DNA from: a virus
Direction: 5' to 3' (one strand)
Length of the DNA stretch: 64,000 bases
Virus record (IMG/VR): IMGVR_UViG_3300042465_007929
Coordinates: 32,001 to 96,000 of that record
Both the position numbers and the translations under genes were made by a program. Every line of letters begins with the position of its first letter. Within the stretch, counting starts at the first letter, position 1. This document shows, one piece after another, positions 1 through 49,906 of this stretch. Below the pieces are notes generated by a model. It searched no databases. It saw only the letters and a program-made list of their open reading frames with translations, and was not told where the DNA came from.

Positions 1-23
1 ATTAAGGATTTTTCCGGTTCCAT
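1..23 (-). CDS. 5' end of a gene running off the window (MEPEKSL...)
   Basis: ATG at 23, open to the window edge, with GTGTAA 11 nt upstream like other gene starts. Confidence 0.45.
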
Positions 24-101
24 GATAATCTTGTTTACACATCTAACAGAAAAAATCTTATATAAATATAATATTATTTCATATTTAATATAAAATTTTA
101 A

Positions 102-299
102 TTACTTTTTTAATTCAAATTTAAATACGGTTTCTGGAGAGACTGGATCTTCTGATATATCGACCTTATCAACTCTCCCATTGACTCTATTAGCGCAATC
201 ACAAGCCCATTTAAAACCCTGCTCATTGATTGAGCTGTACGATTGTGTATAATTATTTTTATAATCATATACGCGATAAATGATATTTTTATTAGTCAT
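102..299 (-). CDS. hypothetical protein
   Basis: 65-aa ORF; TATAAT 9 nt upstream of ATG. Confidence 0.6.
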   Translation of the reverse strand: MTNKNIIYRVYDYKNNYTQSYSSINEQGFKWACDCANRVNGRVDKVDISEDPVSPETVFKFELKK

Positions 300-339
300 A
301 GCCTTTTTATTATAAAATATATTTTTTATTAATCAATAA

Positions 340-585
340 TTATTTATTAGGATAAAACTCTAAAGCAATATTCCCAACAAAATCCGTATCATCACTAATC
401 ATTCCAAAAACTAATAAGAAATTTTCATGGAAATAAGTTTCTTTAATATCCAAAAAGTATTTTTTATCATTCAAATATAAATCATGAATTTTTCCCTTTG
501 TTTCTAAAAGACAATTTTCAAAAAGTATGTTTTGTAGATGTTTTGTCGTCGAATTAGTCCCTACTATCTTAATTGAGCCTTTCAT
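340..585 (-). CDS. hypothetical protein
   Basis: 81-aa ORF overlapping the end of the upstream gene. Confidence 0.55.
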   Translation of the reverse strand: MKGSIKIVGTNSTTKHLQNILFENCLLETKGKIHDLYLNDKKYFLDIKETYFHENFLLVFGMISDDTDFVGNIALEFYPNK

Positions 586-1051
586 ATTTCCAAATGATTT
601 GTGTGTCTTCTATATTATCTAAATCTTCAACTATTTCACATTTTTTATCATATTTTTTTATCCAGTTTAAATATTTTTCTTTTTTATATTTTCTTCTAAT
701 TTCCGATTTTATAGTTTTTTTATTAAATTTATTTAATGCTTTTTTCATTAATTCATAAAAAGCAATCATACGAGAATTAAAAGAAAATTTAGAATTGCCG
801 AAAACAAATACTAAATTTAAACCATCGAACTCTTCTTCAAAAAATATTGACCCAATCCATTCATCATCACAAAAAGCTTCTAAATGATAACAATCATTGA
901 CTATAAATTTACAAAAATCATCAATTTTTGTTTTTCTTAATGAAAAGGATGACAAAGAACAAAAATCATAAGGTTTTGAATTTATACAAAATAAATAAAA
1001 CTTTTCATAAAATAAATCATAATCGTCAATTGTTTCTTTAATTTTAATCAT
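569..1051 (-). CDS. hypothetical protein, possibly GNAT-like fold
   Basis: 160-aa ORF; EAFCDDEWIGSIFF resembles GNAT beta strands (weak); TATAAT 8 nt upstream. Confidence 0.55.
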   Translation of the reverse strand: MIKIKETIDDYDLFYEKFYLFCINSKPYDFCSLSSFSLRKTKIDDFCKFIVNDCYHLEAFCDDEWIGSIFFEEEFDGLNLVFVFGNSKFSFNSRMIAFYELMKKALNKFNKKTIKSEIRRKYKKEKYLNWIKKYDKKCEIVEDLDNIEDTQIIWKYERLN

Positions 1052-1088: not shown

Positions 1089-4052
1089 ATGGGTGAAGGT
1101 ATAGATAAAATGTCAAGAAGTTTGTTGGATTTGCAGCCAACTGCTGTCTTGGAATTTTATAGATTATACCCTGATACTTTAGAAAAACCAAATACTTTTA
1201 TCCCTATTCATAATGGATCAGCTTCAGAAAAAGATGTTGTATGGCAAGATGTTTTATATATGCCACTCCCTATCGAAGCAGAAGGTTTTGAAATAAATGG
1301 TGGGGGAAGATTATCTAGACCTAAAATTAGATTTGCTAATAAAGATTATTTAATAACTAATTTACTTCAAAATAATAAAGATTTTAAAAATGCTAAAGTA
1401 GTTAGGAAAAGGACATTTTTAAAGTTCATTGATGATATAAATTTTGATGGAGGAAATCCATTTGGAGATGAAGACTTTACCGCCGAAATTAGCAGCGAAG
1501 ATTTTTTAATTAGTCAAAAAACAGCAGAAAATAAATTATTTGTTGAATTTGAATTAACATCTCCTTTAGATTTAGAAAATTTTGAACTTAATCATCGTAA
1601 AATACTAGCTAAGTATTGTTATTGGCAATATAGAGGTCATGGCTGCAACTACATGGGGATGCCAGTAGAAAGAGAAAATGGCTTGGGTTTTGTTAAATCA
1701 GATGGTTTGGCTGTTGCTCCTTATAATTTAGATGCTCAAAATGGATTTAATTCAAACGCTAATTTAGAATGGACGGCAAATAAATCGTATACTATAGGAC
1801 AAATTGCTTATTTAGAAAATCCTAAAATAATCATTAACCCACTGCCAGATTCAAACGAACAACCAATGTTTATGAAAAATTGGTATGTGTGTGTTTTGGG
1901 GTCTACAAATCAACATCCAGAATCAAATTTAACATACTGGCAAAAAGATGGATGCAAGAAAACCATTGATGCTTGTAAAAAAAGATTTAACACACAGAAA
2001 TATGATCAATATATCATTGATAGCGCTTCAAGGAGCGAAGATTATATTGGTTTTCAAGGTAATGGGGCAGGAACATCTTTAGGTAAAATATATACAACAG
2101 ATAAAAATATTTTAAATAAATTAAATGGTAATTTTACAATTAATGGTTGGTTTAACATCAAAGTAAATAAAGATTTCGCCTGTATTTTAAGCACAACTCA
2201 AAAACCTACTACAGAAACTACTTATGCATTGGCTCAAATGCCAATAATAGATTTAAATGCGGATACTCATAAATCAGAAATAAGAGGTTTTCAATGGGGT
2301 GATGGTTTTGAGTCTTTTAATTTATCTACATCTTATGATGGAACTAATCAAAGAAATAATTTAGCATTACTCTATAAAGTAGATGGAGTTGGTTATTATG
2401 ATAGAAAAATGGTAATACTTACTAATACTTATCAAAATAATTCTTTAAATTTCATAAGCATTAATGCACAAAAAAATCTATCTGCCCCTCATAATTATTT
2501 AAGATATTCTGAAGATTTTAGATCGGGTGTCATGGGGACACAATGGGACAATATATTATGTTCAATTTCTACCGATGCTACTGGTCAAAAATTAGTTCCT
2601 TATGCAAATTCATCAAATTCATATTGCGGATTTAATATTTCAGAAAGTAGATTTTATAATGATTTTAATTTTTCAAAAACTTGGGCTGAATATGGACAAG
2701 GTTTAACATTTTCAATTCATGTTAAAAAACCAGCCACAAATAGCTATAGATATTTTTTTATTAAACATAGGGAATTTAGAAGATTAGATACTGTTCAATT
2801 TCAAATTATCCAAGGATCTTATACTTGGGATCAAGCAAATGCAGATGCCATAGCTAAAGGAGGAAGATTGGCCATTTTGGATACCCAAGTAAAAGTGAAC
2901 AGTGTTCCAGCTCATACATTTCCAGTATGGCTTGGAGCTACAGATAAATTTATAGAAGGGGATTGGAGATGGATTGATGGTTCTAAATTAAGTGATGGAT
3001 ATACTGCGCCAAACTGGGGAAATGGAGAACCGAGTAATGGTGGTGGTAATGAACATTATTTACAAAGATTATCAGCAGATAATGGATATATTTGGAATGA
3101 CATACCACTAAATTACAATTTAACTAATGATCCAAATTATAGCCCTAAAGGTTATGTGTTGGAAAAAGGATCAACAACTTTTGATGAATATGTGATATTT
3201 GATTTAGATACAAAAAGCATTGTACCCGGACAGAATTTTTGGGTTAATGGTCCAGAAATTCAAGATGTTGGTAATGGGTGGTTAAGATTAAAAGCGACAA
3301 TAGGTAATGGAAATGAAGTTGGAAGACATCTTGCAGGTCTTAATTTTGGTCCATTACCAAATTCCTCTCCAACTATATTACCATCAAAAACAACAGGTAT
3401 TTCATTTGATATAACTAGCAATTATGGAAATGGAACTAGCGGAATTTATATTTCTGGCGCACAACTTGAGAATGGACAATACGCGACAACATATAACCTT
3501 ACAACATCTAGTGCTTATAAACATAGAGATTTTAATCTAGATGGGGAAGATAAGATTGATGTTTATTTAAATAATGTTAATGTCCATTCTTGGACTTCTC
3601 AAAACCAAAATGAGTTATTAAGTTTTAAACCAGAAGAAATTGGATTCGGAATGTCATCTCATATAAGTAATAAAAACCTTTATTCAATTAGTGGATTTGT
3701 TGCTTCTTGGGCTTTGTGGGATAAAGTTATGTCTGAGTCAGATTTAAATACTTTATATAAAAAAGCTGTTAATACTTATGCTCCAATGAATTATGTGGAT
3801 TTAGATGGTTCATTTATTGGCCCTAACAGTAATTTAATTGCTTGGTGGGATATGCAATTAGATCCACTAAACTCAAATAAAATTTTAAACACACATAATA
3901 CAGGTTTATTTAATTTAACTAGGAGTGGCGTTACTATTGCTGGAGCCACAGGTTATAAAGAAGATGTATTTATAACTGCTGCAAAAAAAGCAGATGTAAG
4001 TAATTTACATTTTGGAGGATTTCCCGGAACAGATGGATTTGCGTATGGATAA
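1089..4052 (+). CDS. lambda gpL-like minor tail protein with nested LamG-like, CBM-like and C-type lectin insertions
   Basis: gpL motifs WQDVLYMPLPIEAEGFE..GRLSRP, VRKRTFLKFID, CYWQYRGHGC, DGCKKTIDACKKRF and C-terminal FGGFPG; about 674 aa inserted between CKKRF and FGGFPG. Confidence 0.9.
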   Translation: MGEGIDKMSRSLLDLQPTAVLEFYRLYPDTLEKPNTFIPIHNGSASEKDVVWQDVLYMPLPIEAEGFEINGGGRLSRPKIRFANKDYLITNLLQNNKDFKNAKVVRKRTFLKFIDDINFDGGNPFGDEDFTAEISSEDFLISQKTAENKLFVEFELTSPLDLENFELNHRKILAKYCYWQYRGHGCNYMGMPVERENGLGFVKSDGLAVAPYNLDAQNGFNSNANLEWTANKSYTIGQIAYLENPKIIINPLPDSNEQPMFMKNWYVCVLGSTNQHPESNLTYWQKDGCKKTIDACKKRFNTQKYDQYIIDSASRSEDYIGFQGNGAGTSLGKIYTTDKNILNKLNGNFTINGWFNIKVNKDFACILSTTQKPTTETTYALAQMPIIDLNADTHKSEIRGFQWGDGFESFNLSTSYDGTNQRNNLALLYKVDGVGYYDRKMVILTNTYQNNSLNFISINAQKNLSAPHNYLRYSEDFRSGVMGTQWDNILCSISTDATGQKLVPYANSSNSYCGFNISESRFYNDFNFSKTWAEYGQGLTFSIHVKKPATNSYRYFFIKHREFRRLDTVQFQIIQGSYTWDQANADAIAKGGRLAILDTQVKVNSVPAHTFPVWLGATDKFIEGDWRWIDGSKLSDGYTAPNWGNGEPSNGGGNEHYLQRLSADNGYIWNDIPLNYNLTNDPNYSPKGYVLEKGSTTFDEYVIFDLDTKSIVPGQNFWVNGPEIQDVGNGWLRLKATIGNGNEVGRHLAGLNFGPLPNSSPTILPSKTTGISFDITSNYGNGTSGIYISGAQLENGQYATTYNLTTSSAYKHRDFNLDGEDKIDVYLNNVNVHSWTSQNQNELLSFKPEEIGFGMSSHISNKNLYSISGFVASWALWDKVMSESDLNTLYKKAVNTYAPMNYVDLDGSFIGPNSNLIAWWDMQLDPLNSNKILNTHNTGLFNLTRSGVTIAGATGYKEDVFITAAKKADVSNLHFGGFPGTDGFAYG

Positions 4053-4452
4053 TATTTATAAATATAGAAGAGTAATAGATTGTTTAAATAAAATAAAACA
4101 ATTTTCAAAAATTTCACCACATATGGAAATTTGTGGATTTTTAGGATTTGATATTAATGAGGGAAAATTTGTGGCAAAATTAGAAAATAATTGTTCCACT
4201 GATCCAGTGAATTTTTTCGCAATAGATGCTTTAAAATATCTTTTATTTAAAGAAGAATATTCAATGGTTTGTGTTTTTCATAGTCATATCATTGGAGATG
4301 AGAATCCTTCTGAATTCGATATAAAAATGTCTGAAAATTGTTGCATACCATTTCTTGTGTATTCATTAAATACAGACAAGTTTAAAATTCATGAGCCAAT
4401 AAGTTCGGAATATAATAAAGAAATGTTAGATAAAATTAAAGATAAATTATGA
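4045..4452 (+). CDS. gpK-like JAB/MPN+ metallopeptidase (no NlpC/P60 domain)
   Basis: EICG...FHSH...PSEFD JAMM motif; lies between gpL and gpI; ATG 4045 preferred over the listed TTG start. Confidence 0.85.
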   Translation: MDNIYKYRRVIDCLNKIKQFSKISPHMEICGFLGFDINEGKFVAKLENNCSTDPVNFFAIDALKYLLFKEEYSMVCVFHSHIIGDENPSEFDIKMSENCCIPFLVYSLNTDKFKIHEPISSEYNKEMLDKIKDKL

Positions 4453-5117
4453 CAAATATAATTTTACATGGAATATTAGCAAAAGAATTTGGCGAAAATT
4501 TTCAAATGAAAATTTATAAAGCAAAGAACGTTTTAAAAGCTATCGATGCTAATAGAATTAATTTTATCAATAGAATAAATGAATTATCTCAAGAAGGATT
4601 TAATTATACAGTTATTGTTGATGGTAAAAAAATTAATCAATTAGAGGAGTTAGACGCTCAAAAAGAACCTCAAAAAATTGATTTAGTTCCTTTGATTATT
4701 GGTGCTGGAGGAGTTGCTTTGGTATCTGTTATTACAGGAATAGCCACTAGCGCTATTACCGCTGGCACTGGAGCATTTTTTGCCGCATCAGTAATAAATG
4801 CGGTATTGCTTACTGTCGTTTCTGTGGGTCTTCAAATGTTATTAGCGCCCAAACCAGACGCTCCAGCAGCTATATCATCCACGACGAAAGCAATGCAGCA
4901 ATCATTTTCATTTTCAAATAAAAATAATGTAGCCTCACAAGGTTCTCCTGTTCCATTTGGTTATGGAAGATTAAAAATAGGAAGCCAAGTAATTCAAACA
5001 ACCTTAAAATCATTCCAGCAAAAATCAGATTCAGTAGAATCAATGAAAAGCAATGCGCTACAATCATTAAATAATATTGCTAGCAATTCTGGAGGCATTT
5101 CGAAAAGAAATATTTAA
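4449..5117 (+). CDS. gpI-like tail assembly protein (ubiquitin-like N-terminus)
   Basis: IILHGILAKEFG start, LVPLIIGAGG, hydrophobic segment, QGSPVPFGYGRLKIGSQVI. Confidence 0.88.
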   Translation: MTNIILHGILAKEFGENFQMKIYKAKNVLKAIDANRINFINRINELSQEGFNYTVIVDGKKINQLEELDAQKEPQKIDLVPLIIGAGGVALVSVITGIATSAITAGTGAFFAASVINAVLLTVVSVGLQMLLAPKPDAPAAISSTTKAMQQSFSFSNKNNVASQGSPVPFGYGRLKIGSQVIQTTLKSFQQKSDSVESMKSNALQSLNNIASNSGGISKRNI

Positions 5118-5118
5118 T

Positions 5119-8100
5119 ATGAATCATTTATTTAAAAAATTATCTTTCGGCGGAGCTGGAGGAGGAAAAAAACCACAGGCAAAACCTGCAACATTAAAAC
5201 CTCCTATTGTTGGATCTTTTCAATTAGCCGCTTCTTATGATTATCTTGAAAGTGTTGAATTATTAAGTGATGGACCGATTGAAGGTTTGGTTAATCAGAA
5301 TGGATTAACATTAAGTGATAGAAGTTTATTACAAGGTGTGTACCTTAATGACACTCCAGTTATTGTAACAAACAACGATACTGTTTCCCCAAGAGAATCT
5401 TTCAGTCGAAATCCAACAAATATTGATTCTGGAAAAACGTTAAATGAAGCTTCAACTGCTGATCTAATTAGTACTTTTTTCTCTTCATTAAAAGCGCAAA
5501 GAAATGAAGCCCCACACCCTTCTCTTGGTGTGAATGTTAATACAGAAAGAGTTATTTCTTGCATCACTAATAATGCGTTTTCATCTAAATATGAAAATTG
5601 GATTTTAGACGGAACTATATTAAATACTTTAATAAATCAAGTAACAACCATTACGAATAAACCTAAAACTATAGCTCAATTATTAAGTAGTTGGCTCAAC
5701 GCTCCAGTTGTAAATAAAATTTTAATAGGAGGTAGATTATATAGTAAAGATTTAGATCCAGCTTCTTTAGGTGAATCTTTTGTAGTTAATTTAAATGATC
5801 CTTCATCTTTATACCTTGAAACATCTCCTTTAACGTATTCTTATAATGATAAAAATAAATCTCAATATACCGAAAATAGTTATAATAAATATGTAAAAGA
5901 TAATGCCCATTTAAGTAAAATTCTTGATATCTATCTTTTAAAAAGATATATAGGATTAAAAAAGATAATTGATATAGCATTAAGAAAATCTTTAACAGAT
6001 ATTAATCAAAAAGATTATTCGAAAGAATACGCTAAAACACTACTTGATGATAGATTAGGTATTAATTGGTCAAATTCTTCTAATTTAATTGATTTATTAA
6101 TGAATAAATTAAATATTGATAAGAATAATGATATGATTTTTATTATACCGTCTCCCCCTAAAGACGTATCGAGAGGAAGTCTTCCCTTAGTTAAGGAATA
6201 TATTGATCCAATTACCGGAATTAAAACTAAACAATTGAGAAAATGCCATGTAAAGATGTTTGATTCGTCAAATCAAGCATTTACAAATAGTGTCGATGGC
6301 ATATTTTTTCATGATTTTTTAGTTCCAACAATTAATGCGAATGGAAATTGGGAAGATTACGAATTAACAGGATTTGTCATATTGCAAATTAAAGGAAAAA
6401 ATGTAGAATCAGTTTCCGAAGTAAAAAAAGGAGAAAAACCAAAACAATTTAGAGGAGCTAATAATTGGGGTGTACCCGGAAAAAAAACTATTCGATATTT
6501 TAATCAAGCATTTTGTATCCCAGAGAAAGCTGCTACAAGATTGTCTCAAGCCTCACAGTTTAAATTAATTCCAGAAGATTACGCATTATCTAGTGCTAAT
6601 TTAGTATCTAACGGAAAAGATAAATTTAATTATACTGACATTTTTGTTGAATATAAAGAAGGAAAAGAGCATCAAGTTCCTTTAGAGTATTTTAGTAATA
6701 TTTGTATAGATCATATGTATGGTTCTCAATTAATAGGACCATTTAGAGTAAATGGTAACATACAAAGAATTAAAGAAGAAAAAAGCGTTTTTGATTTCAC
6801 TCAATATAAATCAAATTTAAATTTAGACATAAGCGCTGAAGGAAGTGAAGACGATAGAGAAGTAGGAAATTTTTCTGATTGGAATTATGCTAATACAAAT
6901 TTCAATGAATCTTTAATCCCTATAACACATATCATTTTAAATCCAAATGTTAGTCAATGTTATATAACATTACAAATTTCTCAATTATCAGATACTATTA
7001 GTAGAGATCTTAATACTAACTCTTATGGTCAAGCTGGCGCAGGAACTAATTATCCGACAACAGTTACTATAGAAGTTGAAGTTGGTCATATTGATGATAA
7101 TGGAACTCAAGTCCCTTTAAGCGTAAATAAAAGATTTGAAATTGTTTCTTTGATTCAGAGTCCTACTTATATAGATATTGGCAATCCAGATAATCAAAAA
7201 AATCAAAAGGACTACTTATTTATAATAAATAAAACACATAATGCAGAAGGAGTTTGGACACCATTTGATCTTCCATTAATAGAAATTAAAACAGCGCTCG
7301 ATAAAGAATTATCTTCTCCTATTTCTACTAATTTATCAGGATCATCAAAAAGATATATAAAAGTTTCAAAAATATCAACAGAAACAAACTCTACTTTAGT
7401 TAGAAAAGATGTTTCTTTAGCTAAAATTACTGAAATAATTAAAGGTAATTTAACATATCCATTTTCAGCTTTAGTTGCGACAAAAATAGACTCAAGAGCT
7501 TTTGGATCTGTGCCAACTAAAATTTATGATTGTAAATTAAAAAAAATAAAAGTTCCAAATAATTATTTTCCTTGTAGTCTAGATACAGGAAAAGATAAAA
7601 GATATTATAAAAATCAAACAGAATTTAATTCTGGAGATCGCCATGTATATCAAGGAGATTGGAATGGAGAATTTCATAATGAATTAGTTTGGACTGATAA
7701 TCCAGCATGGATTATATATGATATATTAACAAGCACTAGATATGGATTGGGTCAATATTTAGATATTGAACAAATTGATATTTGGGAATTATATAAAATC
7801 GGAAGATTTTGTGATGCAGTTGATGATTTTGGATATTTTCAAGGCGTTCCTGATGGATTTGGAGGTTTTGAACCAAGATTTTCTTGCAATGTTTTATTCA
7901 CTGAGGGAGAAAAAGTTTTTGATGTGATTAATATTATTTCTGCTTTATTTAGGGGGCAAACATATTATTATAATTCAGAAATTCATTTTGTAGATGATAG
8001 ACCCAAAACTCCTATCGCTTTATTTACTAATTCAAATATAAAAGATGGATTTTTTAATTACGCAAATTACAGAAGAGATGAACAATTTAATACTATCGAA

Positions 8101-9684
8101 GTAACTTATATTGATAGATTTGAAAACTTTCAAACTAAAATTGAATTCGCAGAAGATGAAGAAGATATAAGAAAAAGAGGTATATTTAAAAAAACAATTA
8201 ATGCTATAGGAGTATCATCTCCAGCTATGGCAAAAAGAATTGCTCAACATTTATTATTTCAAACTATCAAAGAAAATCAATCAGTAACATTTTCTGCTGG
8301 ATTAGAATCTTTATTATGTAGGCCCGGTGATTTAATTATAGTTGAAGATGAATTAAAAAGTTTAAAATCTAATTTTGGACGTATTTTAGATATAGATTCT
8401 AATAATGGATATATAAGAACTAATGATGTATTAAATACTACAGATTATGAAAGTTATATTACTGTTTATACGCCAACTGGACATCAAACTAGAGATGATT
8501 TAAGGGCTATAGTGAATACCAAAAGAAGTAGATTAGATTCATTTGTTTTAACCCAAGGAGGTTGGACTTCTCCGACTTATGATTATTTAACTGGTAATTA
8601 TAGATTTTCTGGTTATACTGCTGGTTTTGATAAACTCAAAACACAATTCCCATCCGTTCTTGAAGAGCAGTATGCTCTATATACAGGAAGAAATAGTAAT
8701 TTTTGTTATTTTTCAACTCAATATACTGGATGGGTTTTAGGGGTGGGAAATCCATACGCTTTAGACTCAAATGGTCGTTTCATATTTGATTCTGAAGATT
8801 TTAATTTTGATGATGTGAATAGAGGTTATGGGTATTTTTATAATACAGCAGTAGCAGATAGGAGAGGAAGTAAATTTGCTACAGCTTTAAATGGGCAACT
8901 TACTGGACCTAATTCTAAATTTAGAAATATAAATGGAACTGAATTGTATTTAACTGGAGGTTTACTTCCGTCGGATATTGAATTGACTAGTCCATCTCAT
9001 ATTAGTAAATTTAAAATTACTGGTTTTGAATCTATGGAATATGGATCATTATTATTAATTGATAAACTTGATAAAAATTTCGCTTTATTACCTCTCGTCC
9101 CAGAAGGATCTGTTTATCGTTTTCAACGAAAAAATGCTGATGATCAAATTTATAAAGTATTAAATATTCAAGAACAAAATCCAAACGAATATTTAGTAAC
9201 TGCTTCGTTATTTAATACTGGTAAATATAATTTTATAGAAAATTATCAATCAATTCAAAATCAAAATTCAACATATAGCCACACAGCTAGCCAAGTCATT
9301 AATAATCAAACATTTGAGACATTAAAATCTCCTATAATAACTAAATTGATCACTGGATATGATGATGCAAAAAATTTATATATAACTGGAAATTGGACTG
9401 GTTATTTCCCAAGCGATAGCAATAAATGTCTAGGCTATAACGTAAGACTAAAACAAGCCAATGGTTATTCAATAGAACAATTTTTCCCAATTGAAACATC
9501 TGGAGCTTCATTTTATGCCCCATCAGTTGGAAATTATGTTTTATCTGTACAAGCTAAAGGTGTAAAAACTAATAGCACTAAATACTTTGATTCAGAATTT
9601 AATTCTTCTGGAATATTTATACTATATAACGATGCAGTTTTAAAAGATAGAGCGTACATCACATCTTTAAGTATCTTATCATGA
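5119..9684 (+). CDS. gpJ-like central tail fibre / host specificity protein
   Basis: ELLSDGPIEGLV, WTDNPAWIIYDILT..RYGLG, EPRFSCN, RPGDLI; ATG 5119 preferred. Confidence 0.92.
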   Translation: MNHLFKKLSFGGAGGGKKPQAKPATLKPPIVGSFQLAASYDYLESVELLSDGPIEGLVNQNGLTLSDRSLLQGVYLNDTPVIVTNNDTVSPRESFSRNPTNIDSGKTLNEASTADLISTFFSSLKAQRNEAPHPSLGVNVNTERVISCITNNAFSSKYENWILDGTILNTLINQVTTITNKPKTIAQLLSSWLNAPVVNKILIGGRLYSKDLDPASLGESFVVNLNDPSSLYLETSPLTYSYNDKNKSQYTENSYNKYVKDNAHLSKILDIYLLKRYIGLKKIIDIALRKSLTDINQKDYSKEYAKTLLDDRLGINWSNSSNLIDLLMNKLNIDKNNDMIFIIPSPPKDVSRGSLPLVKEYIDPITGIKTKQLRKCHVKMFDSSNQAFTNSVDGIFFHDFLVPTINANGNWEDYELTGFVILQIKGKNVESVSEVKKGEKPKQFRGANNWGVPGKKTIRYFNQAFCIPEKAATRLSQASQFKLIPEDYALSSANLVSNGKDKFNYTDIFVEYKEGKEHQVPLEYFSNICIDHMYGSQLIGPFRVNGNIQRIKEEKSVFDFTQYKSNLNLDISAEGSEDDREVGNFSDWNYANTNFNESLIPITHIILNPNVSQCYITLQISQLSDTISRDLNTNSYGQAGAGTNYPTTVTIEVEVGHIDDNGTQVPLSVNKRFEIVSLIQSPTYIDIGNPDNQKNQKDYLFIINKTHNAEGVWTPFDLPLIEIKTALDKELSSPISTNLSGSSKRYIKVSKISTETNSTLVRKDVSLAKITEIIKGNLTYPFSALVATKIDSRAFGSVPTKIYDCKLKKIKVPNNYFPCSLDTGKDKRYYKNQTEFNSGDRHVYQGDWNGEFHNELVWTDNPAWIIYDILTSTRYGLGQYLDIEQIDIWELYKIGRFCDAVDDFGYFQGVPDGFGGFEPRFSCNVLFTEGEKVFDVINIISALFRGQTYYYNSEIHFVDDRPKTPIALFTNSNIKDGFFNYANYRRDEQFNTIEVTYIDRFENFQTKIEFAEDEEDIRKRGIFKKTINAIGVSSPAMAKRIAQHLLFQTIKENQSVTFSAGLESLLCRPGDLIIVEDELKSLKSNFGRILDIDSNNGYIRTNDVLNTTDYESYITVYTPTGHQTRDDLRAIVNTKRSRLDSFVLTQGGWTSPTYDYLTGNYRFSGYTAGFDKLKTQFPSVLEEQYALYTGRNSNFCYFSTQYTGWVLGVGNPYALDSNGRFIFDSEDFNFDDVNRGYGYFYNTAVADRRGSKFATALNGQLTGPNSKFRNINGTELYLTGGLLPSDIELTSPSHISKFKITGFESMEYGSLLLIDKLDKNFALLPLVPEGSVYRFQRKNADDQIYKVLNIQEQNPNEYLVTASLFNTGKYNFIENYQSIQNQNSTYSHTASQVINNQTFETLKSPIITKLITGYDDAKNLYITGNWTGYFPSDSNKCLGYNVRLKQANGYSIEQFFPIETSGASFYAPSVGNYVLSVQAKGVKTNSTKYFDSEFNSSGIFILYNDAVLKDRAYITSLSILS

Positions 9685-42756: not shown

Positions 42757-43155
42757 ATGCCTCTATATACTTATTTCAGAGAATCTACAGAAGAGTTTAT
42801 TGATATCATGCAAGGAATGAATGATATTCATTTATACTCTGGAGAGTGTGGAACACAAGAAGATTGGAAAAGGGTGTTTTACTCTCCACAGATGGCTATG
42901 GATACTCAGATAGATCCATTCAGCTCAAAGCAGTTCAATGACCGCACAAGAGATAAGAAAGGCACTGTTGGGCATCTCTTAGACTATAGCGCTGAAATGA
43001 GCGATAAAAGAGCATCGCAAGCTGGAGGTATTGATCCAGTTAAACAAAAGTATTTTGAAAATTATTCAAAAGAGCGTATGGGAGCAAAACACCAGCTTGA
43101 AAAACAATCTTTTGAGGGCAAAAATTTTAAAGTAAATTATAATCAAAAAAATTAA
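42757..43155 (+). CDS. FmdB-like protein lacking zinc-ribbon cysteines
   Basis: MPLYTY start and KRVFYSP; no CxxC pairs. Confidence 0.55.
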   Translation: MPLYTYFRESTEEFIDIMQGMNDIHLYSGECGTQEDWKRVFYSPQMAMDTQIDPFSSKQFNDRTRDKKGTVGHLLDYSAEMSDKRASQAGGIDPVKQKYFENYSKERMGAKHQLEKQSFEGKNFKVNYNQKN

Positions 43156-45743: not shown

Positions 45744-47405
45744 TTACACTAAATTCCAAGCTATATTTAAGTTATTCCATAAATCATAAATATCATTCCA
45801 TTTATCAGCGTAAATAGTTTTTCTATTGATATAAAAACCTTTTTTATCTGTAATTTCCACATTAAACGATGCTTGAAATTTCATAATATTATTTATCGTT
45901 AATGAGTAATTAAAATTTTCTAATTTAGCATTTTCAAATTTATATTTTGATGTAGTATATTTTTGTTGATCAGAGCATGATACAATAAAATTGTATCCAG
46001 ATTCATTTGTAAATAATTTATTTATTTCTCCAGCATTAAATCCAGATACTAAAGATTCTATTGTTACGTTTGCATTAATTGGATATTGGAGTTTTCTATT
46101 AAAAATATAATTACTTCCTAATCCATATAAATCAACTCGATCAAAATTTATTGATAACCCAAATGATTGAAGAATAGGTTGAGATCCAGAAGATAATGCG
46201 ACTCCACCAACTTGTAAATCTTCCAAAGTAAATATACTATTATTAGATAAAGATACAGGCGGATTAAACTCTGTTCTATTATTTAAATCTCCACTTATAT
46301 ATCCAGAAACTAAACCAGAGTAATAAGAAGGCAAATCAAAAAATCCAGAAGTATTTATCGATCCATTTTGATTTATTGACGGTGTTGATACATCTAAATT
46401 ATTATTCAAATTATCAAATTTCATATTTGAACATGAATATTTAACAGAAACAATAGGTATTGCATTATTTGAAAAATTTAATGAATAATTCTTTAAATAA
46501 GAATCTCCAAATGATAAAACATCAAAACCAGAAAAACTACTTGGTAAAGATCCTTGTTTTTTTACTAAATCAAGTCCATCTCTACCGTCTTTATTATCTA
46601 TTACTAAATAAAAATTATTTTTTATTTTTTTTAAATCTGCAAAAGCATTTTCTTCTAAAGTGTTTTCGCCTTTAAACCCCATTAATAGTTCATTATTTAA
46701 ATAAGGACTTAAATAATAATCAAAAGAAAGATCTACATTAGGGGCTTTTATTAAATTATTAATACAATAATCTTGAGATCCTATTTGTCGTAATTTTTGT
46801 CTATCATTTTCAATTGAAAAATTACAATTTTGCACTAAAGAAAATAATCTTGGTTTTTCAAGATACTCAGAAACGGTTAAAGATGAATTTGTTGTTTTAA
46901 TATATCTCGTTGGCGATGTACCAGATTCAACTTGAGCGCCCCATGCATAAAAACTAAAAGGGCTTGCACCCGCTATTCCTCTTTGTATTTGAGGATAAAT
47001 ACTACCAATAGGTCTGTTGGCCCATACTTTAAAAAATCTTTTCCACTCTGTTGTAACATCACATCTTTGTTCCGCACTATTAAATCCTATATATATAATT
47101 TGTGGAGAGTCAGCTCTTAACCAAATAGAAAAAACATAATTCCCAGCGGTTGAAATAGATCTTCCTTGTTGTTCAACTCTACTATTAGCACTAACTCCAA
47201 AAGTTATTTTTTCGGCAGTTTGTGTATTAAATGGGCCATTAACATTTGTCTCTGTAATAGTAGGCCGATTATCTCCTAATAGAGTCCAATTATTGAATGA
47301 TTCACTATCAAAAAGAATGTTTGTCCTCTGTCTAGTTGTTGATCTATCTAGAGGATTAGTAATGCAAACAAATGCTGAATCGCTTTTAATTATTTGTCTT
47401 TTCAT
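45744..47405 (-). CDS. tail tube protein paralogue with CBM-like insert
   Basis: Motifs match 61388-62584 (VQ..N...RQ...Q.G; YL.NYS..F...AIP.VS; R..L..LGS...P); insert 46890-47321. Confidence 0.7.
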   Translation of the reverse strand: MKRQIIKSDSAFVCITNPLDRSTTRQRTNILFDSESFNNWTLLGDNRPTITETNVNGPFNTQTAEKITFGVSANSRVEQQGRSISTAGNYVFSIWLRADSPQIIYIGFNSAEQRCDVTTEWKRFFKVWANRPIGSIYPQIQRGIAGASPFSFYAWGAQVESGTSPTRYIKTTNSSLTVSEYLEKPRLFSLVQNCNFSIENDRQKLRQIGSQDYCINNLIKAPNVDLSFDYYLSPYLNNELLMGFKGENTLEENAFADLKKIKNNFYLVIDNKDGRDGLDLVKKQGSLPSSFSGFDVLSFGDSYLKNYSLNFSNNAIPIVSVKYSCSNMKFDNLNNNLDVSTPSINQNGSINTSGFFDLPSYYSGLVSGYISGDLNNRTEFNPPVSLSNNSIFTLEDLQVGGVALSSGSQPILQSFGLSINFDRVDLYGLGSNYIFNRKLQYPINANVTIESLVSGFNAGEINKLFTNESGYNFIVSCSDQQKYTTSKYKFENAKLENFNYSLTINNIMKFQASFNVEITDKKGFYINRKTIYADKWNDIYDLWNNLNIAWNLV

Positions 47406-48721
47406 TATGTATTTCTTGGTATAACTCCCATTGTATCTTCGATTAAAGAGACTTCTAAATCGTTACTATTATGATATTTCCAAGTGTGCGTCCACTGTGG
47501 ACATGTAAAAAGCTTTGGTCTATTATATACAGATGGTATTTGATGCCTGAATCTTCTATAACCAGCTTTATTTTCTAAAAAATGAAGCATACACGTTAAT
47601 TGTTTGTTGCTTATATTCGAAAATTTATAGTTTAAATCTATCGGAGCGATATTATTTTTAGTTTTAATTCTAAGAGGGAATGAATTTTTAAATTCGAGTT
47701 TTTTTACATTTAATTTTACATCATTCTGTAATCCAACATCTGGTTGAAAAAAGAACTCTTGACTCCATTCTGGACCTTCAATCATCTCTAATATATAACC
47801 ACCAATAGAAGCATGGCTTTCTGGAAGATCATTCCATTTATTTGCCGCCGGACCCATATTTTGAACATAAATTGATGCATAGTCTTCACCATTAGAATCA
47901 TTTGGTTCTCCATTATTCCAATTTGAATACGAATCAAATACTCTTGATCCATCTATCCACCTCCAATCTCCTTCAAAATCTTTATCTGTAGCTCCAATCC
48001 ATAAACAATTAAAAGCATTTCCAGTGTATTGTGGGGCTTTATTATTTTTTTCTTCAGTATTTAAAACAGCCAATCTCCCACCTCTTCTTTCGGCATCATC
48101 TCTAGCTTGAGTCCAACTAAAATTTCCAGTTATTATTTGAAAAACATTTTCACTAGAATTTAAAACATTTAAATTATCTTTCTTGCAATACCAAAAATTA
48201 TTTAATTTATTTTTATTTCCATCTATATAAACTATATCATATTTTTTATATTGAACGCCTAATTCATAATTTTGAAAATTATAATTTAAAAAATTCATAT
48301 TAGACCAATTTAGTATAGTTGGCGATTGATCAATAGCTATATTTACAGCGAACTCATATCTATCATCATTAATATGATTAATTGCGTAATTATCAGAAAA
48401 TCCTAATAAATTTCTATAAACATTAAAATTATCTGGGACAAACTCAAATGAAATAATAGCACTTCTCGCTTCAAAGAAATTAACTAATCTTTGTGCATCG
48501 ATTTCATTAACATCATATTTTATATCAAATGAAGCTCTTAAATTATTAATAGAAGATGGTATAGTATTAAAATAAGAATCATCCGTCTCGTATGAAATGT
48601 TATTAGAAGAAAATTGAACTTTAGATCCATAAGAAGGAGTTAAATTAAATTCCGAAAGATTTTGCGGAGATATAAATCCAGATAAATTAACATCTCTATT
48701 ATAAAAAAGATCTTCACTCAT
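47405..48721 (-). CDS. gpM/distal-tail-like protein with C-type lectin insert
   Basis: Two gpM-like halves (PSYG..V...FFEAR...F.F; HFLENKAG...F...C..W); CTL at 47786-48142. Confidence 0.7.
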   Translation of the reverse strand: MSEDLFYNRDVNLSGFISPQNLSEFNLTPSYGSKVQFSSNNISYETDDSYFNTIPSSINNLRASFDIKYDVNEIDAQRLVNFFEARSAIISFEFVPDNFNVYRNLLGFSDNYAINHINDDRYEFAVNIAIDQSPTILNWSNMNFLNYNFQNYELGVQYKKYDIVYIDGNKNKLNNFWYCKKDNLNVLNSSENVFQIITGNFSWTQARDDAERRGGRLAVLNTEEKNNKAPQYTGNAFNCLWIGATDKDFEGDWRWIDGSRVFDSYSNWNNGEPNDSNGEDYASIYVQNMGPAANKWNDLPESHASIGGYILEMIEGPEWSQEFFFQPDVGLQNDVKLNVKKLEFKNSFPLRIKTKNNIAPIDLNYKFSNISNKQLTCMLHFLENKAGYRRFRHQIPSVYNRPKLFTCPQWTHTWKYHNSNDLEVSLIEDTMGVIPRNT

Positions 48722-49905
48722 AAATGTCCGTTATAGTTAAGTGTTAATTTTAAAACTCCATCAGCAGAACTTGATAATTCTTGACTAATTAGACTTGCTT
48801 TTGGTATATTGATTGATTGTAGTATGTTACCAGTTCTTCCCGCTATTGATATATTAATATTTTTGTCTTCTTTAGAATAAATAAAATTAGAAGAACTAGA
48901 GATTAAATCTTCATCAAGTTCTATTTGAACTGAAGCCGAATACTCTATTGGAGGCAGTGTTTCTACGCGAATTGGCCCTAATTTTCTTTTTGCATTTAAA
49001 TCATAAAAATATCCAATCCCATAAATTGGTTTTCTATTGATTTTTAAAGAATAATCAAATCCAACAACTCTATTTGTTGAACTATAATCACAATTTATAG
49101 TTATAGATCCTTGATTTGGTACAAAAATTGGAGGAGGAGTACTCGATGGATACTCTATAATATAACCAGATGTAGTTTTCTGCCATAAATCACTTGCATC
49201 ATCCCATTTTCCATTACTATACCTTTGTAAATAATTTTGATCTCCAAATGTATTACTTGGTTCCGCATCATCCCAATTTGAATAGTTTCCATTGTAATTA
49301 GATCCACCACTAAAAAAAATAGTTTCATCTATCCACTTCCAAACTCCTTCTTCACTAACATCTGAGCCTCCAATCCACATACTTTGGCTATAAGGTGGAA
49401 CATTATCATTTTTTTCTTCAGTATTTAAAACAGCCAATCTCCCTCCTCTTTTTTGGGCATCTATTACCGCCTCATCCCAAGTATAAGAACCATAAATTAA
49501 TTGAAATCCAGAATTTAATAATAAATCTTCACTATTTATATCTCCAAATACTGAAAAATTACAAGTTACTTTAGGAACAGACCCAACAGCACAATTCACC
49601 ATGTATTCAGTAAGATATGCATTTTCAAATGTATAGTACTTATCATTATTTTCACCATACATTATGCTCCCATAAATTTTTGAAACTCCAGTATAATTAA
49701 GTATAGGATCTCTATATATCAGATTTCTAGAAATAGATACTGTTTTTTTAGTGTCTCCTTCTTGGGATGTTATTCCTTTTGAATAGCCAAGAGGCTTTAA
49801 TATTTTTAATTCTTGGTTATATGAAATATTGATAGAATCAATACCCAATATTTCTTGATTATTGATTAAAACTTTGGAATTATAATTTAAATTAGCATCA
49901 AACAT
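48718..49905 (-). CDS. tail tube-fold protein with C-type lectin insert
   Basis: YLTEYMVNCAVGSVPKV and RKPIYGIG...P match the tube protein; CTL at 49153-49506; lies right after the TMP. Confidence 0.65.
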   Translation of the reverse strand: MFDANLNYNSKVLINNQEILGIDSINISYNQELKILKPLGYSKGITSQEGDTKKTVSISRNLIYRDPILNYTGVSKIYGSIMYGENNDKYYTFENAYLTEYMVNCAVGSVPKVTCNFSVFGDINSEDLLLNSGFQLIYGSYTWDEAVIDAQKRGGRLAVLNTEEKNDNVPPYSQSMWIGGSDVSEEGVWKWIDETIFFSGGSNYNGNYSNWDDAEPSNTFGDQNYLQRYSNGKWDDASDLWQKTTSGYIIEYPSSTPPPIFVPNQGSITINCDYSSTNRVVGFDYSLKINRKPIYGIGYFYDLNAKRKLGPIRVETLPPIEYSASVQIELDEDLISSSSNFIYSKEDKNINISIAGRTGNILQSINIPKASLISQELSSSADGVLKLTLNYNGHL

Positions 49906-49906
49906 T

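What the first reader, a model, noticed from the sequence alone, without database searches (positions are those of the whole stretch)
1974..4028. Nested domain insertions inside gpL: gpL[LamG[CBM[C-type lectin]]]
Seen: the gpL motifs CKKRF (1974-1988) and FGGFPG (4011-4028) are about 674 aa apart. The insert opens and closes with LamG/concanavalin-like halves (FTINGWF...; VYLNN...WALWDKVMS...LIAWW). That domain is interrupted by a jelly-roll cassette (NYLRYSEDF...GAQLENG..ATTY..TT, 2493-3506), which is in turn interrupted by a C-type lectin domain (2799-3164). Known: in lambdoid gpL these two motifs are close together. Inference: three successive in-frame insertions turned a structural hub protein into a multivalent glycan-binding platform.
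Basis: partly seen in the sequence, partly recalled or inferred. Interest (0 to 1): 0.8.

Follow-up and report, generated by a model that had tools for sequence, protein, structure and literature searches.

The report
Three nested sugar-binding domains in gpL
The tail-tip protein gpL of this uncultured 140-kb phage carries a 674-residue side arm made of three lectin-type domains encoded one inside another, and related phages hold versions with none, one or two of these layers, so this shows step by step how a phage structural protein can be turned into a probable host-grabbing device.

Summary
ORF 1089-4052 (+) is a 987-aa gpL homologue, followed by K, I and J.

- **Insertion site.** CKKRF holds the fourth cysteine of the iron-sulfur site. 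FGGFPG starts the conserved C-terminal tail. They are 674 aa apart here, 5 aa apart in lambda, and 5-58 aa apart in 120 relatives.
- **Outer layer.** Residues 301-464 plus 811-974 form one concanavalin-A/LamG/pentraxin-like sandwich (VIA Z 21).
- **Middle layer.** Residues 465-563 plus 698-810 are one copy of a roughly 180-aa phage tail-protein module (phrog_5939). Elsewhere this module is contiguous and tandem.
- **Inner layer.** Residues 564-697 are a cysteine-free C-type lectin domain with an EPS...NE...WND calcium/sugar motif. It replaces a 6-11-aa hairpin loop.

Relatives supply the empty, one-layer and two-layer alleles. The lectin also sits at other sites in gpL and in two more tail proteins of this window. 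Against a 92%-identical relative the lectin evolves fastest, and EPS becomes QPD.

My best reading is an 'evolved gpL': three outward arms for calcium-dependent binding of host surface glycans. Binding itself, the order of the insertions and the CBM label of the middle layer remain inferred.

This is a new variant of a known kind (evolved Dit/Tal). Unchecked notes of this scan report nested lectin-like domains in tail proteins on other DNA.

The parts
1089..4052 (+). gpL homologue, 987 aa (P0002), stop codon included
   Evidence: ORF list. Pfam Phage_tail_L, E 1e-37, and phrog_18. Lambda gpL 8iyk_L, E 1.2e-20.
1089..1583 (+). HDI beta-sandwich hub domain (aa 1-165)
   Evidence: VIA-align to lambda gpL 8iyk_L: Z 18.1, 158 residues aligned, model 1..165. 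Foldseek E 1.3e-12.
1584..1988 (+). Iron-sulfur-type C-terminal domain (aa 166-300). It holds C177, C186, C289 and C296, and a conserved insert of about 100 aa (aa 187-288) between the two Cys pairs.
   Evidence: The four Cys are invariant in 77 homologues. They align with lambda C173/C182 and with the KDKC..C motif. The lambda ligands and the outer-surface position come from PMC10721106.
1989..2480 (+). Outer layer, N-terminal half of the ConA/LamG/pentraxin-like domain (aa 301-464)
   Evidence: VIA-align matches span 316..957. The HMM of one-layer alleles matches q312-459.
2481..2777 (+). Middle layer, N-terminal half of the phrog_5939-type beta-sandwich module (aa 465-563). It starts with the PHNYLRYSEDF motif.
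   Evidence: Cassette HMM positions 1-93. The same motif opens the tandem modules of other tail proteins.
2778..3179 (+). Inner layer, cysteine-free C-type lectin domain (aa 564-697) with the EPS...NE...WND motif
   Evidence: Pfam Lectin_C: 24.3 bits against a cut-off of 22.6. Langerin CRD E 1.4e-10, with alignment. Five relatives have 6-11 aa in this place.
3180..3518 (+). Middle layer, C-terminal half (aa 698-810). It ends with GAQLENG..ATTYNLTT.
   Evidence: Cassette HMM positions 96-213. phrog_5939, E 8.6e-11, at aa 690-809.
3519..4010 (+). Outer layer, C-terminal half of the ConA/LamG-like domain (aa 811-974)
   Evidence: The HMM of one-layer alleles matches q819-957. VIA ranges end at about 957.
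4011..4049 (+). Conserved gpL C-terminal tail, FGGFPGTDGFAYG (aa 975-987)
   Evidence: Nearly invariant in 77 homologues, with or without the insert.
4012..9684 (+). gpK-like (JAB), gpI-like and gpJ-like genes that complete the L-K-I-J tip module
   Evidence: Pfam Prok-JAB and Phage-tail_3; phrog_32 and phrog_31. The same order is found in relatives.
47405..49905 (-). Two further tail proteins that carry paralogues of the same lectin module, directly downstream of the tape measure gene. One is gpM-like (438 aa, 45% identity). The other has 395 aa (39% identity).
   Evidence: tblastn. Pfam Phage_min_tail plus Lectin_C, and Lectin_C alone.

Best explanation
This is an 'evolved gpL'. The protein keeps everything that builds the lambda-type tail tip: the HDI hub domain, the four-cysteine iron-sulfur domain and the conserved C-terminal tail.

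Right after the fourth cysteine ligand the chain leaves the iron-sulfur domain, which lies on the outer face of the tip in lambda. It builds a 674-residue arm and returns just before the C-terminal tail.

The arm is a Russian doll:
- a ConA/LamG-like sandwich,
- with a loop that holds a phage tail-fibre-type beta-sandwich module,
- with a hairpin in that module that holds a C-type lectin domain.

Such nesting works if each inserted domain has its two ends side by side and so fits into a loop without disturbing its carrier. This is established for C-type lectin and LamG domains and inferred for the middle module.

gpL is a trimer in lambda, so the virion would display three such arms at the tip. 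The lectin copies on the gpM-like ring protein and on one more tail protein would add to them.

The likely job is calcium-dependent, multivalent and reversible binding of host surface polysaccharide. That would hold the tip at the cell surface before gpJ engages its receptor. Swapping or mutating layers would retune host range.

- **Shown:** the architecture, the allelic series, the mobility of the modules, and the fast evolution of the lectin.
- **Inferred:** sugar binding, calcium dependence, the outward position of the arm, and its role in adsorption.
For: - **gpL identity and tip module:**
- **Insertion site:** it lies after C296, and the four Cys are invariant. [quoted passage not shown]
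- **Outer domain is discontinuous.** PAPP-A LamG-like domain: Z 21.0, 208 residues aligned. BACOVA_03559: Z 19.2. Pentraxins: Z 16-17.5, with 192-202 of about 205 residues aligned. Neurexin and laminin LG domains: Z 13-14. All matches span model 316..957. The one-layer HMM matches as two colinear pieces.
- **Middle module.** Its HMM is split at positions 93/96 around the lectin and is contiguous in six relatives. It forms tandem units of about 180 aa in phrog_5939 tail proteins. In the model of the lectin-less allele the insertion point is a beta-hairpin, E100-109/E115-124, inside the better-predicted core.
- **Lectin.** Pfam hit above the cut-off. Langerin E 1.4e-10, with GEPSN/GEPNN, NEH and WND aligned.
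- **Allelic series in syntenic phages.** Of 269 anchored homologues, 120 are empty, 121 have the outer layer only, about 10 have two layers and 2 have three.
- **Lectin mobility.** The lectin sits in the other gpL loop in P0005/P0006, elsewhere in P0011/P0013/P0014, and in two more tail proteins of this window.
- **Evolution against the 92%-identical relative.** HDI has 1 change in 205 aa. The lectin has 26 changes in 134 aa, with the highest dN/dS (0.42) and EPS changed to QPD in the specificity motif.
- **Precedent.** CBM insertions in Dit and Tal aid adsorption (PMC7291167 and PMC10688798).
Against: - No binding data exist, and no cultured relative carries the insert.
- AlphaFold did not fold the lectin (pLDDT under 50 at aa 592-696). 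Its fold therefore rests on sequence alone.
- The lectin lacks all the cysteines that stabilise animal C-type lectin domains, and it has EPS rather than EPN or QPD.
- The model of the middle module is poor (mean pLDDT 55), and its CBM matches lie in the range that chance gives (Z 6.8-7.8).
- No coordinates were available to me. The contacts between the halves are therefore deduced from aligned ranges and HMM colinearity, not measured.
- LamG-like domains also mediate protein-protein contacts.
Confidence: 0.7

Rival explanations
1. The arm is a docking platform, not a direct adhesin. The LamG-like and sandwich layers would hold other tail fibres or receptor-binding proteins, such as the 571-aa protein after J or the fibre-like proteins at 43-47 kb. 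The arm would act as a baseplate-like adaptor.
For: - LamG and pentraxin folds often bind proteins; the top matches include PAPP-A, neurexin and laminin LG domains.
- The best structural match of the middle module is a domain of a Pa193 baseplate chain, probably wedge protein gp46, which carries the tail-fibre attachment loop.
- The phage encodes several other fibre-like proteins.
Against: - The innermost, most exposed layer is a C-type lectin domain with the sugar/calcium motif kept, and it evolves fastest. This fits a surface that meets the host rather than a conserved partner protein.
- Relatives with an empty gpL keep the same downstream genes.
Confidence: 0.15
2. The nesting is real but did not arise by three successive insertions into gpL. 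Either a ready-made nested block was acquired at once by recombination with another tail gene, or the shorter alleles are deletion products of a full-length ancestor.
For: - Modules move. The lectin sits at different sites in different gpL proteins and in other tail proteins.
- Neighbouring genes are only 40-87% identical between the phages compared, so the alleles are old.
- The lectin tree is poorly resolved.
- No tree-based count of gains and losses was made.
Against: - Among the proteins retrieved, no protein outside gpL has the lectin inside the cassette or the cassette inside a LamG domain. There the modules occur singly or in tandem.
- Frequencies fall with depth (120, 121, about 10, 2), as stepwise gain would give. 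The sampling is biased towards similarity to the query.
Confidence: 0.25
3. The domains are arranged in a row rather than nested. The apparent split halves would be separate, smaller domains that merely resemble parts of a larger fold.
For: - Only first and last aligned residues are reported by the aligner.
- Both AlphaFold models have low mean confidence (66 and 55).
Against: - 192-208 residues of roughly 205-224-residue LamG/pentraxin domains align in order. Neither flank alone is long enough, at about 150 ordered residues each.
- Profiles of contiguous one-layer and two-layer alleles match the query colinearly, with a single break at each insertion point.
- The lectin replaces a 6-11-aa loop between two strands that are conserved on both sides.
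Confidence: 0.04

Closest known systems
Lambda gpL (tail tip protein L; PDB 8iyk chain L; Pfam PF05100)
   Same: - The HDI domain matches (Z 18.1).
- The four cysteines align with the lambda [4Fe-4S] ligands C173, C182, C205 and C212.
- The FGGF tail is kept.
- The gene order L-K-I-J is the same.
   Different: - Lambda gpL has 232 aa, with 5 residues where this protein has 674.
- This family also has an insert of about 100 aa between the two Cys pairs.
- The M and tape-measure genes are not upstream. They lie about 43 kb away on the other strand.
'Evolved' Dit and Tal proteins of siphophages of lactic acid bacteria: CBM insertions in loops of tail-tip structural proteins (PMC7291167, PMC6669499, PMC10688798)
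   Same: - Sugar-binding-type modules are inserted into loops of a conserved tail-tip structural protein.
- Empty ('classical') and filled ('evolved') alleles occur among related phages.
- The presumed role is auxiliary adsorption to host polysaccharide.
   Different: - The carrier is gpL, at the iron-sulfur domain, not the Dit galectin domain or the Tal extension.
- The insertions are nested three deep rather than one or two side by side.
- The modules are LamG-like, a phrog_5939 sandwich and a C-type lectin, not BppA-type CBMs.
- The host is probably aquatic and unknown.
Nested insertions in lambda gpJ: an Ig-like domain inside the HDII-insertion domain, and a beta-sandwich inside HDIV (PMC10721106)
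   Same: Domains are inserted within domains in a protein of the same tail-tip complex.
   Different: - The protein and the folds differ.
- Those insertions are fixed features of gpJ, not a variable allelic series.
- No lectin layer is involved.
Animal C-type lectin carbohydrate-recognition domains (langerin, mincle, DC-SIGN; Pfam PF00059)
   Same: The sequences are homologous over about 100 residues (E 1e-10). The WIGxTD, EGxWxW, EPx-N, NE and WND positions of the calcium/sugar site are kept.
   Different: - There are no cysteines at all, so no disulfides.
- The motif is EPS, not EPN or QPD; the closest relative has QPD.
- The domain is embedded in a hairpin of another domain of a phage protein.
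Hypervariable C-terminal region of gpL-type hub proteins (phages LSH1, Jersey and lambda; PMC13243795)
   Same: That paper notes that the gpL C-terminal region is a focus of structural variation and probably lies close to the cell wall.
   Different: The variation described there is truncation or a different small fold, not a 674-aa multi-domain arm.

Membership tests
gpL / Phage_tail_L (PF05100) | N-terminal HDI hub domain that matches the family profile and fold | tested here: met
   Pfam E 1e-37 at aa 45-196. 8iyk_L Z 18.1, rmsd 3.0, 158 residues aligned.
gpL / Phage_tail_L (PF05100) | Four conserved cysteines of the [4Fe-4S] site in the C-terminal domain | tested here: met
   C177, C186, C289 and C296 are invariant in 77 homologues and align with the lambda motifs. 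Only the residues were tested.
gpL / Phage_tail_L (PF05100) | Actual binding of an iron-sulfur cluster | not testable with these tools
   This needs purified protein and spectroscopy.
gpL / Phage_tail_L (PF05100) | Lambda-type gene neighbourhood (H-M-L-K-I-J) | tested here: inconclusive
   L-K-I-J is present. The tape measure and the gpM-like gene lie at 47-57 kb on the minus strand.
C-type lectin domain (PF00059) | Profile match above the curated threshold | tested here: met
   24.3 bits against a cut-off of 22.6. PDB langerin E 1.4e-10 for the segment alone.
C-type lectin domain (PF00059) | Calcium site 2 / sugar motif (EPN or QPD ... E/N ... WND) | tested here: inconclusive
   EPS-N, NE and WND align with langerin EPN-N, NE and WND. 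The third residue is Ser. The 92% relative has QPD.
C-type lectin domain (PF00059) | Conserved disulfide-forming cysteines | tested here: not met
   There is no cysteine in aa 564-697.
C-type lectin domain (PF00059) | C-type lectin fold | tested here: inconclusive
   AlphaFold left aa 592-696 below pLDDT 50, with an alignment only 2-3 sequences deep there.
Concanavalin A-like / LamG / pentraxin fold | Two-sheet jelly-roll that superposes on solved LamG/pentraxin domains over most of their length | tested here: met
   Z 21.0 (8hgh_A, 208 aligned), 19.2 (4dqa_A), 16-17.5 (pentraxins, 192-202 of about 205), 13-14 (neurexin and laminin LG).
Pfam Laminin_G_3 (PF13385) | Sequence profile match | tested here: not met
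   No hit at E up to 5 in the query or in seven relatives. I therefore file this layer as a fold relative, not as a member of that Pfam family.
phrog_5939 tail-protein module (the middle cassette) | Profile match, and the NxLxxSExF ... GAQLE.G...Y..T motifs at the two ends | tested here: met
   phrog_5939 E 8.6e-11 (query C-terminal half) and 2.6e-10 in one contiguous stretch (lectin-less allele). Motifs and tandem copies in P0374-P0386.
Carbohydrate-binding module (CAZy CBM, beta-jelly-roll type) | Fold match to a defined CBM family | tested here: inconclusive
   CBM22, CBM16 and CBM61 at Z 6.8-7.8, from a model with mean pLDDT 55. The best match instead is a Pa193 baseplate chain, Z 10.5.
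Evolved Dit/Tal-type adhesion decoration | Sugar-binding-type module inserted in a loop of a tail-tip structural protein, with empty alleles in relatives | tested here: met
Evolved Dit/Tal-type adhesion decoration | Demonstrated binding to the host cell surface | not testable with these tools
   No host and no protein are available.
Diversity-generating retroelement target (C-type-lectin-fold variable protein) | Near-identical template repeat for the variable region | tested here: not met
   blastn of the insert against the window finds only the paralogous lectins, at 68-74% identity. The rest of the genome was not searched.

The most novel reading that the evidence does not exclude
The loop after the last iron-sulfur ligand of gpL may be a general plug-in socket of lambda-type tail tips in aquatic phages. 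Whole lectin arms would be built there layer by layer and exchanged with other tail proteins. The innermost lectin's EPS/QPD-type motif would act as a host-range switch. If so, the natural series of 0, 1, 2 and 3 layers is a readable record of how nested multidomain proteins evolve, and a scaffold on which binding heads can be swapped.
Probability: 0.4. Interest if true: 0.65.

Novelty: new variant of a known kind. Interest (0 to 1): 0.55.

Why it matters
Decoration of tail-tip proteins with sugar-binding modules is well documented for Dit and Tal of phages of Gram-positive dairy bacteria. I found no description of it for gpL in the papers searched.

This case puts a large exchangeable arm on the outward-facing iron-sulfur domain, whose own role is still unknown. 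It comes with natural intermediates in syntenic phages, so each insertion step can be compared directly.

It also shows canonical (Pfam Lectin_C) but disulfide-free C-type lectin domains on up to three proteins of one phage tail tip. A switch in the specificity motif between near-identical phages gives a concrete and testable handle on host recognition in an uncultured aquatic phage lineage.

More generally, it is a clean example of three-deep domain nesting built from three unrelated folds.

Tried and rejected
- **Pfam at E up to 5** gave no LamG or CBM family for the outer or middle layers, in the query or in seven relatives. The fold had to come from structure.
- **The full-length AlphaFold model** (mean pLDDT 66) left the lectin unfolded.
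- **Adding lectin-only proteins to the alignment** failed because MAFFT misplaced them. Tandem-lectin proteins and whole lectin-less cassettes were also misaligned around the insertion. I therefore spent the second fold on a natural lectin-less cassette with a clean 12-row alignment. It still gave only pLDDT 55.
- **Foldseek on the whole model** found only gpL-type hubs with significance.
- **A scan of viral contigs with the cassette** found nothing.
- **tblastn against 50,697 GenBank phage records** found only the N-terminal gpL domain, at most 23% coverage and about 35% identity.
- **Global pairwise alignment of one-layer inserts to the query insert** was uninformative at this divergence.
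- **The lectin tree** was too weakly supported to name donors.
- **DGR-type diversification of the lectin** was considered and rejected for this window, because there is no template repeat.
- **Intein or mobile-element readings** were not pursued. All three layers match binding-type domains, and the frame is conserved in relatives.
- **Tam et al. 2013 on gpL** could not be read because it is not held.
- **A PDB sequence search with the gpM-like protein** returned only lectins. It did not show whether its gpM fold is also interrupted.
Full report
**The gene and its setting.** Window 1089-4052 (+) is one open frame of 987 aa. Its first 200 residues match Pfam Phage_tail_L (E 1e-37), phrog_18 and lambda gpL (PDB 8iyk_L, E 1.2e-20). 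The genes that follow are a JAB-type gpK, a gpI (phrog_32) and a 1535-aa gpJ (Phage-tail_3, phrog_31). The window has 31% G+C.

**The observation.**
- The translation of 1974-4028 begins with CKKRF and ends with FGGFPG, with 674 residues between them.
- In lambda the corresponding stretch reads CKFRNNVGNFGG.
- C177, C186, C289 and C296 are invariant in an alignment of 77 homologues.
- They align with the lambda motifs that hold C173, C182, C205 and C212, the ligands of the [4Fe-4S] cluster. The lambda cryo-EM paper places this iron-binding domain on the outer surface of the tail tip (PMC10721106).
- The insert therefore begins four residues after the last cluster ligand and ends at the conserved C-terminal tail, FGGFPGTDGFxYG. 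That tail is nearly invariant whether or not an insert is present.

**Empty and partly filled alleles.** Three database searches gave 372 related proteins. In 269 of them both anchors could be located.
- The gap is 5-58 aa in 120 proteins and 250 aa or more in 149. No protein has a gap between 75 and 250 aa. This is what whole-domain insertion predicts.
- The empty forms are 296-345 aa long and 55-65% identical to the query over residues 1-300. They read, for example, CKKRFVNKPLPFGGFPGTDGF.
- Contigs that carry an empty allele (L003, L004), a one-layer allele (L005, L006), two-layer alleles (L001, L008-L010) and the three-layer allele (L007) share the gene order around gpL. Small minus-strand genes lie upstream and K-I-J downstream.
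- Where the locus extends far enough (L002-L006), a minus-strand 151-aa gene follows, and in L002-L004 also genes of about 275 and 384 aa.
- Neighbouring proteins are 40-87% identical to those of the window.

**Outer layer.**
- Pfam does not name the outer layer.
- An AlphaFold2 model of the whole protein has mean pLDDT 66. It is well predicted at aa 301-370, 410-465 and 820-965.
- VIA-align compared it with 48,161 PDB representatives. The matches were the LamG-like domain of PAPP-A (Z 21.0, rmsd 2.7, 208 aligned), a Bacteroides carbohydrate-binding protein, 4dqa (Z 19.2), pentraxins (Z 16-17.5, 192-202 of about 205 residues), and neurexin, laminin and agrin LG domains (Z 13-14).
- Every one of these matches spans model residues 316 to about 957.
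- About 200 residues aligned in order across a 640-residue span cannot come from one flank alone. Each flank has only about 150 ordered residues.
- Independently, an HMM built from the roughly 375-aa inserts of one-layer relatives hits the query as two colinear pieces: HMM 24-144 with q312-459, and HMM 198-353 with q819-957.
- I had no access to coordinates, so the shared sheet is deduced, not measured.

**Middle layer.**
- Residues 465-810 minus the lectin carry the motifs PHNYLRYSEDF at the start and GAQLENG..ATTYNLTT at the end.
- An HMM built from lectin-less relatives matches those relatives as one piece (positions 1-213 in P0004, P0007, P0009, P0010, P0012 and P0243). It matches the query as positions 1-93 (q465-563) and 96-213 (q692-810).
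- The same module forms two to five contiguous tandem copies of about 180 aa in other proteins (P0374-P0386). These are phage tail proteins of phrog_5939 (E down to 1e-116), and some have a C-terminal Laminin_G_3 domain.
- The lectin-less cassette of P0004 hits phrog_5939 in one stretch.
- A model of that cassette is weak (mean pLDDT 55, pTM 0.61). Its better-predicted core (aa 84-175, block means mostly 65-86) contains the hairpin E100-109/E115-124, whose turn is the lectin site.
- Its best structural match is a domain of a Pseudomonas phage Pa193 baseplate chain (9b45_v: Z 10.5, 160 aligned, 19% identity). By its length this chain is probably wedge protein gp46.
- CBM22, CBM16 and CBM61 follow at Z 6.8-7.8, which the tool's own note puts in the chance range.
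- I therefore call this layer a tail-fibre-type beta-sandwich module. 'CBM' is a plausible but untested label.

**Inner layer.**
- Residues 564-697 match Pfam Lectin_C above its threshold. They match langerin, mincle and DC-SIGN recognition domains at E 1e-10 to 1e-6.
- The alignment to langerin keeps WIG.T, EGDW.W.D, GEP(S/N)N, NEH and WND.
- The domain has no cysteine. This would suit folding in the cytoplasm (my inference).
- In five relatives the 134 residues are replaced by 6-11 residues between two conserved strands...YFYIR... and ...FIVFDL....

**Mobility of the modules.**
- The lectin lies in the other loop of the iron-sulfur domain, between the two Cys pairs, in P0005 and P0006.
- It lies ahead of the cassette in P0011, P0013 and P0014, and occurs twice in P0259.
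- Two more proteins of this window carry paralogues. They are a gpM-like protein (47405-48721, 45% identity) and a 395-aa protein (48718-49905, 39% identity). Both lie directly downstream of the tape measure gene.
- The same lectin type forms arrays of up to 27 copies in giant proteins of unknown origin.
- A quick tree of 60 lectin domains is too weakly supported to name donors.

**Evolutionary rate.** I compared the query with the 92%-identical P0003, which has the same length and no gaps.
- The HDI region has 1 change in 205 residues (dN/dS 0.01).
- The lectin has 26 changes in 134 residues, the highest dN/dS (0.42).
- The changes include EPS to QPD at the position that sets mannose-type or galactose-type specificity in animal C-type lectins. 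That rule is established knowledge of the family and was not tested here.
- No template-type repeat for a diversity-generating retroelement is present in the window.

**Mechanism.**
- Shown: a conserved gpL core carries a three-deep nested arm at a site that is surface-exposed in lambda. The arm exists in graded forms in related phages, and its tip evolves fastest.
- Inferred: three arms per virion bind host surface glycans with the help of calcium, together with the other lectin-bearing tip proteins. Layer gain, loss and exchange would retune host range.
- The closest described parallel is the evolved Dit and Tal proteins of siphophages of lactic acid bacteria. Their inserted CBMs bind the host and aid adsorption (PMC7291167 and PMC10688798).
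- A 2026 paper already calls the gpL C-terminal region hypervariable and probably close to the cell wall (PMC13243795).
- I found no paper describing a lectin or LamG insertion in gpL. No GenBank phage record carries it.

**Earlier notes of this scan.** Unchecked notes report nested LamG or lectin-like domains in tail proteins of other uncultured viruses. The general phenomenon has therefore been seen before on other DNA. This case adds a different carrier protein, three unrelated folds, and a complete allelic series.

**Verdict.**
- The reading is supported for the architecture and plausible for the function.
- It is a new variant of a known kind, of moderate interest.

Noticed in passing
window 47405-49905 (-): Two tail proteins just downstream of the tape measure gene each carry a paralogue of the gpL lectin module. 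The 438-aa protein has Pfam Phage_min_tail (gpM-like) in two stretches plus Lectin_C at aa 202-299, so its gpM fold may itself be interrupted. The 395-aa protein has Lectin_C at aa 140-242.
   Followed up: partly
window 1089-9684 (+) versus 47405-57322 (-): The lambda-type tail-tip module is split. The tape measure gene, the 395-aa protein and the gpM-like gene lie on the minus strand at 47-57 kb. L-K-I-J lie on the plus strand at 1-9.7 kb, about 38 kb away.
   Followed up: no
window 45744-47405 (-): This 553-aa protein next to the gpM-like gene carries a diverged copy of the same phrog_5939 sandwich module (aa 26-177, E 1e-9) that forms the middle layer of the gpL arm.
   Followed up: no
window 43152-45731 (-): This 859-aa protein has a BppL_N (lower baseplate protein) motif and three stretches of an ice-binding-type beta-roll (LbR_Ice_bind). 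It is a likely receptor-binding fibre.
   Followed up: no
window 49907-57322 (-): The tape measure protein has 2471 aa and a weak, below-threshold glucosaminidase-type match (27.6 bits against a cut-off of 30.2) at aa 1687-1760.
   Followed up: no
L007:5207-5608 (P0003) versus window 2778-3179: The closest relative is 92% identical overall but has QPD where this phage has EPS in the lectin's sugar-specificity motif. Most of the other changes cluster in the same loop region.
   Followed up: partly
L002:2912-3271 (P0005; also P0006): In these 1092/1097-aa gpL proteins the lectin is inserted in the other loop of the iron-sulfur domain, between the two cysteine pairs. Their second site holds a lectin-less cassette that has extra inserts of its own.
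   Followed up: partly
L001, L002, L008 (record coordinates start at 1): Three independently assembled contigs of related phages all begin 1.9-2.5 kb upstream of gpL. This may mark a fixed genome end in this lineage.
   Followed up: no
window 1647-1952 (+), aa 187-288: This phage lineage has a conserved domain of about 100 aa between the two cysteine pairs of the iron-sulfur site, against about 22 aa in lambda. It is predicted with pLDDT 80-92, and relatives give weak Phage_BR0599 hits.
   Followed up: no
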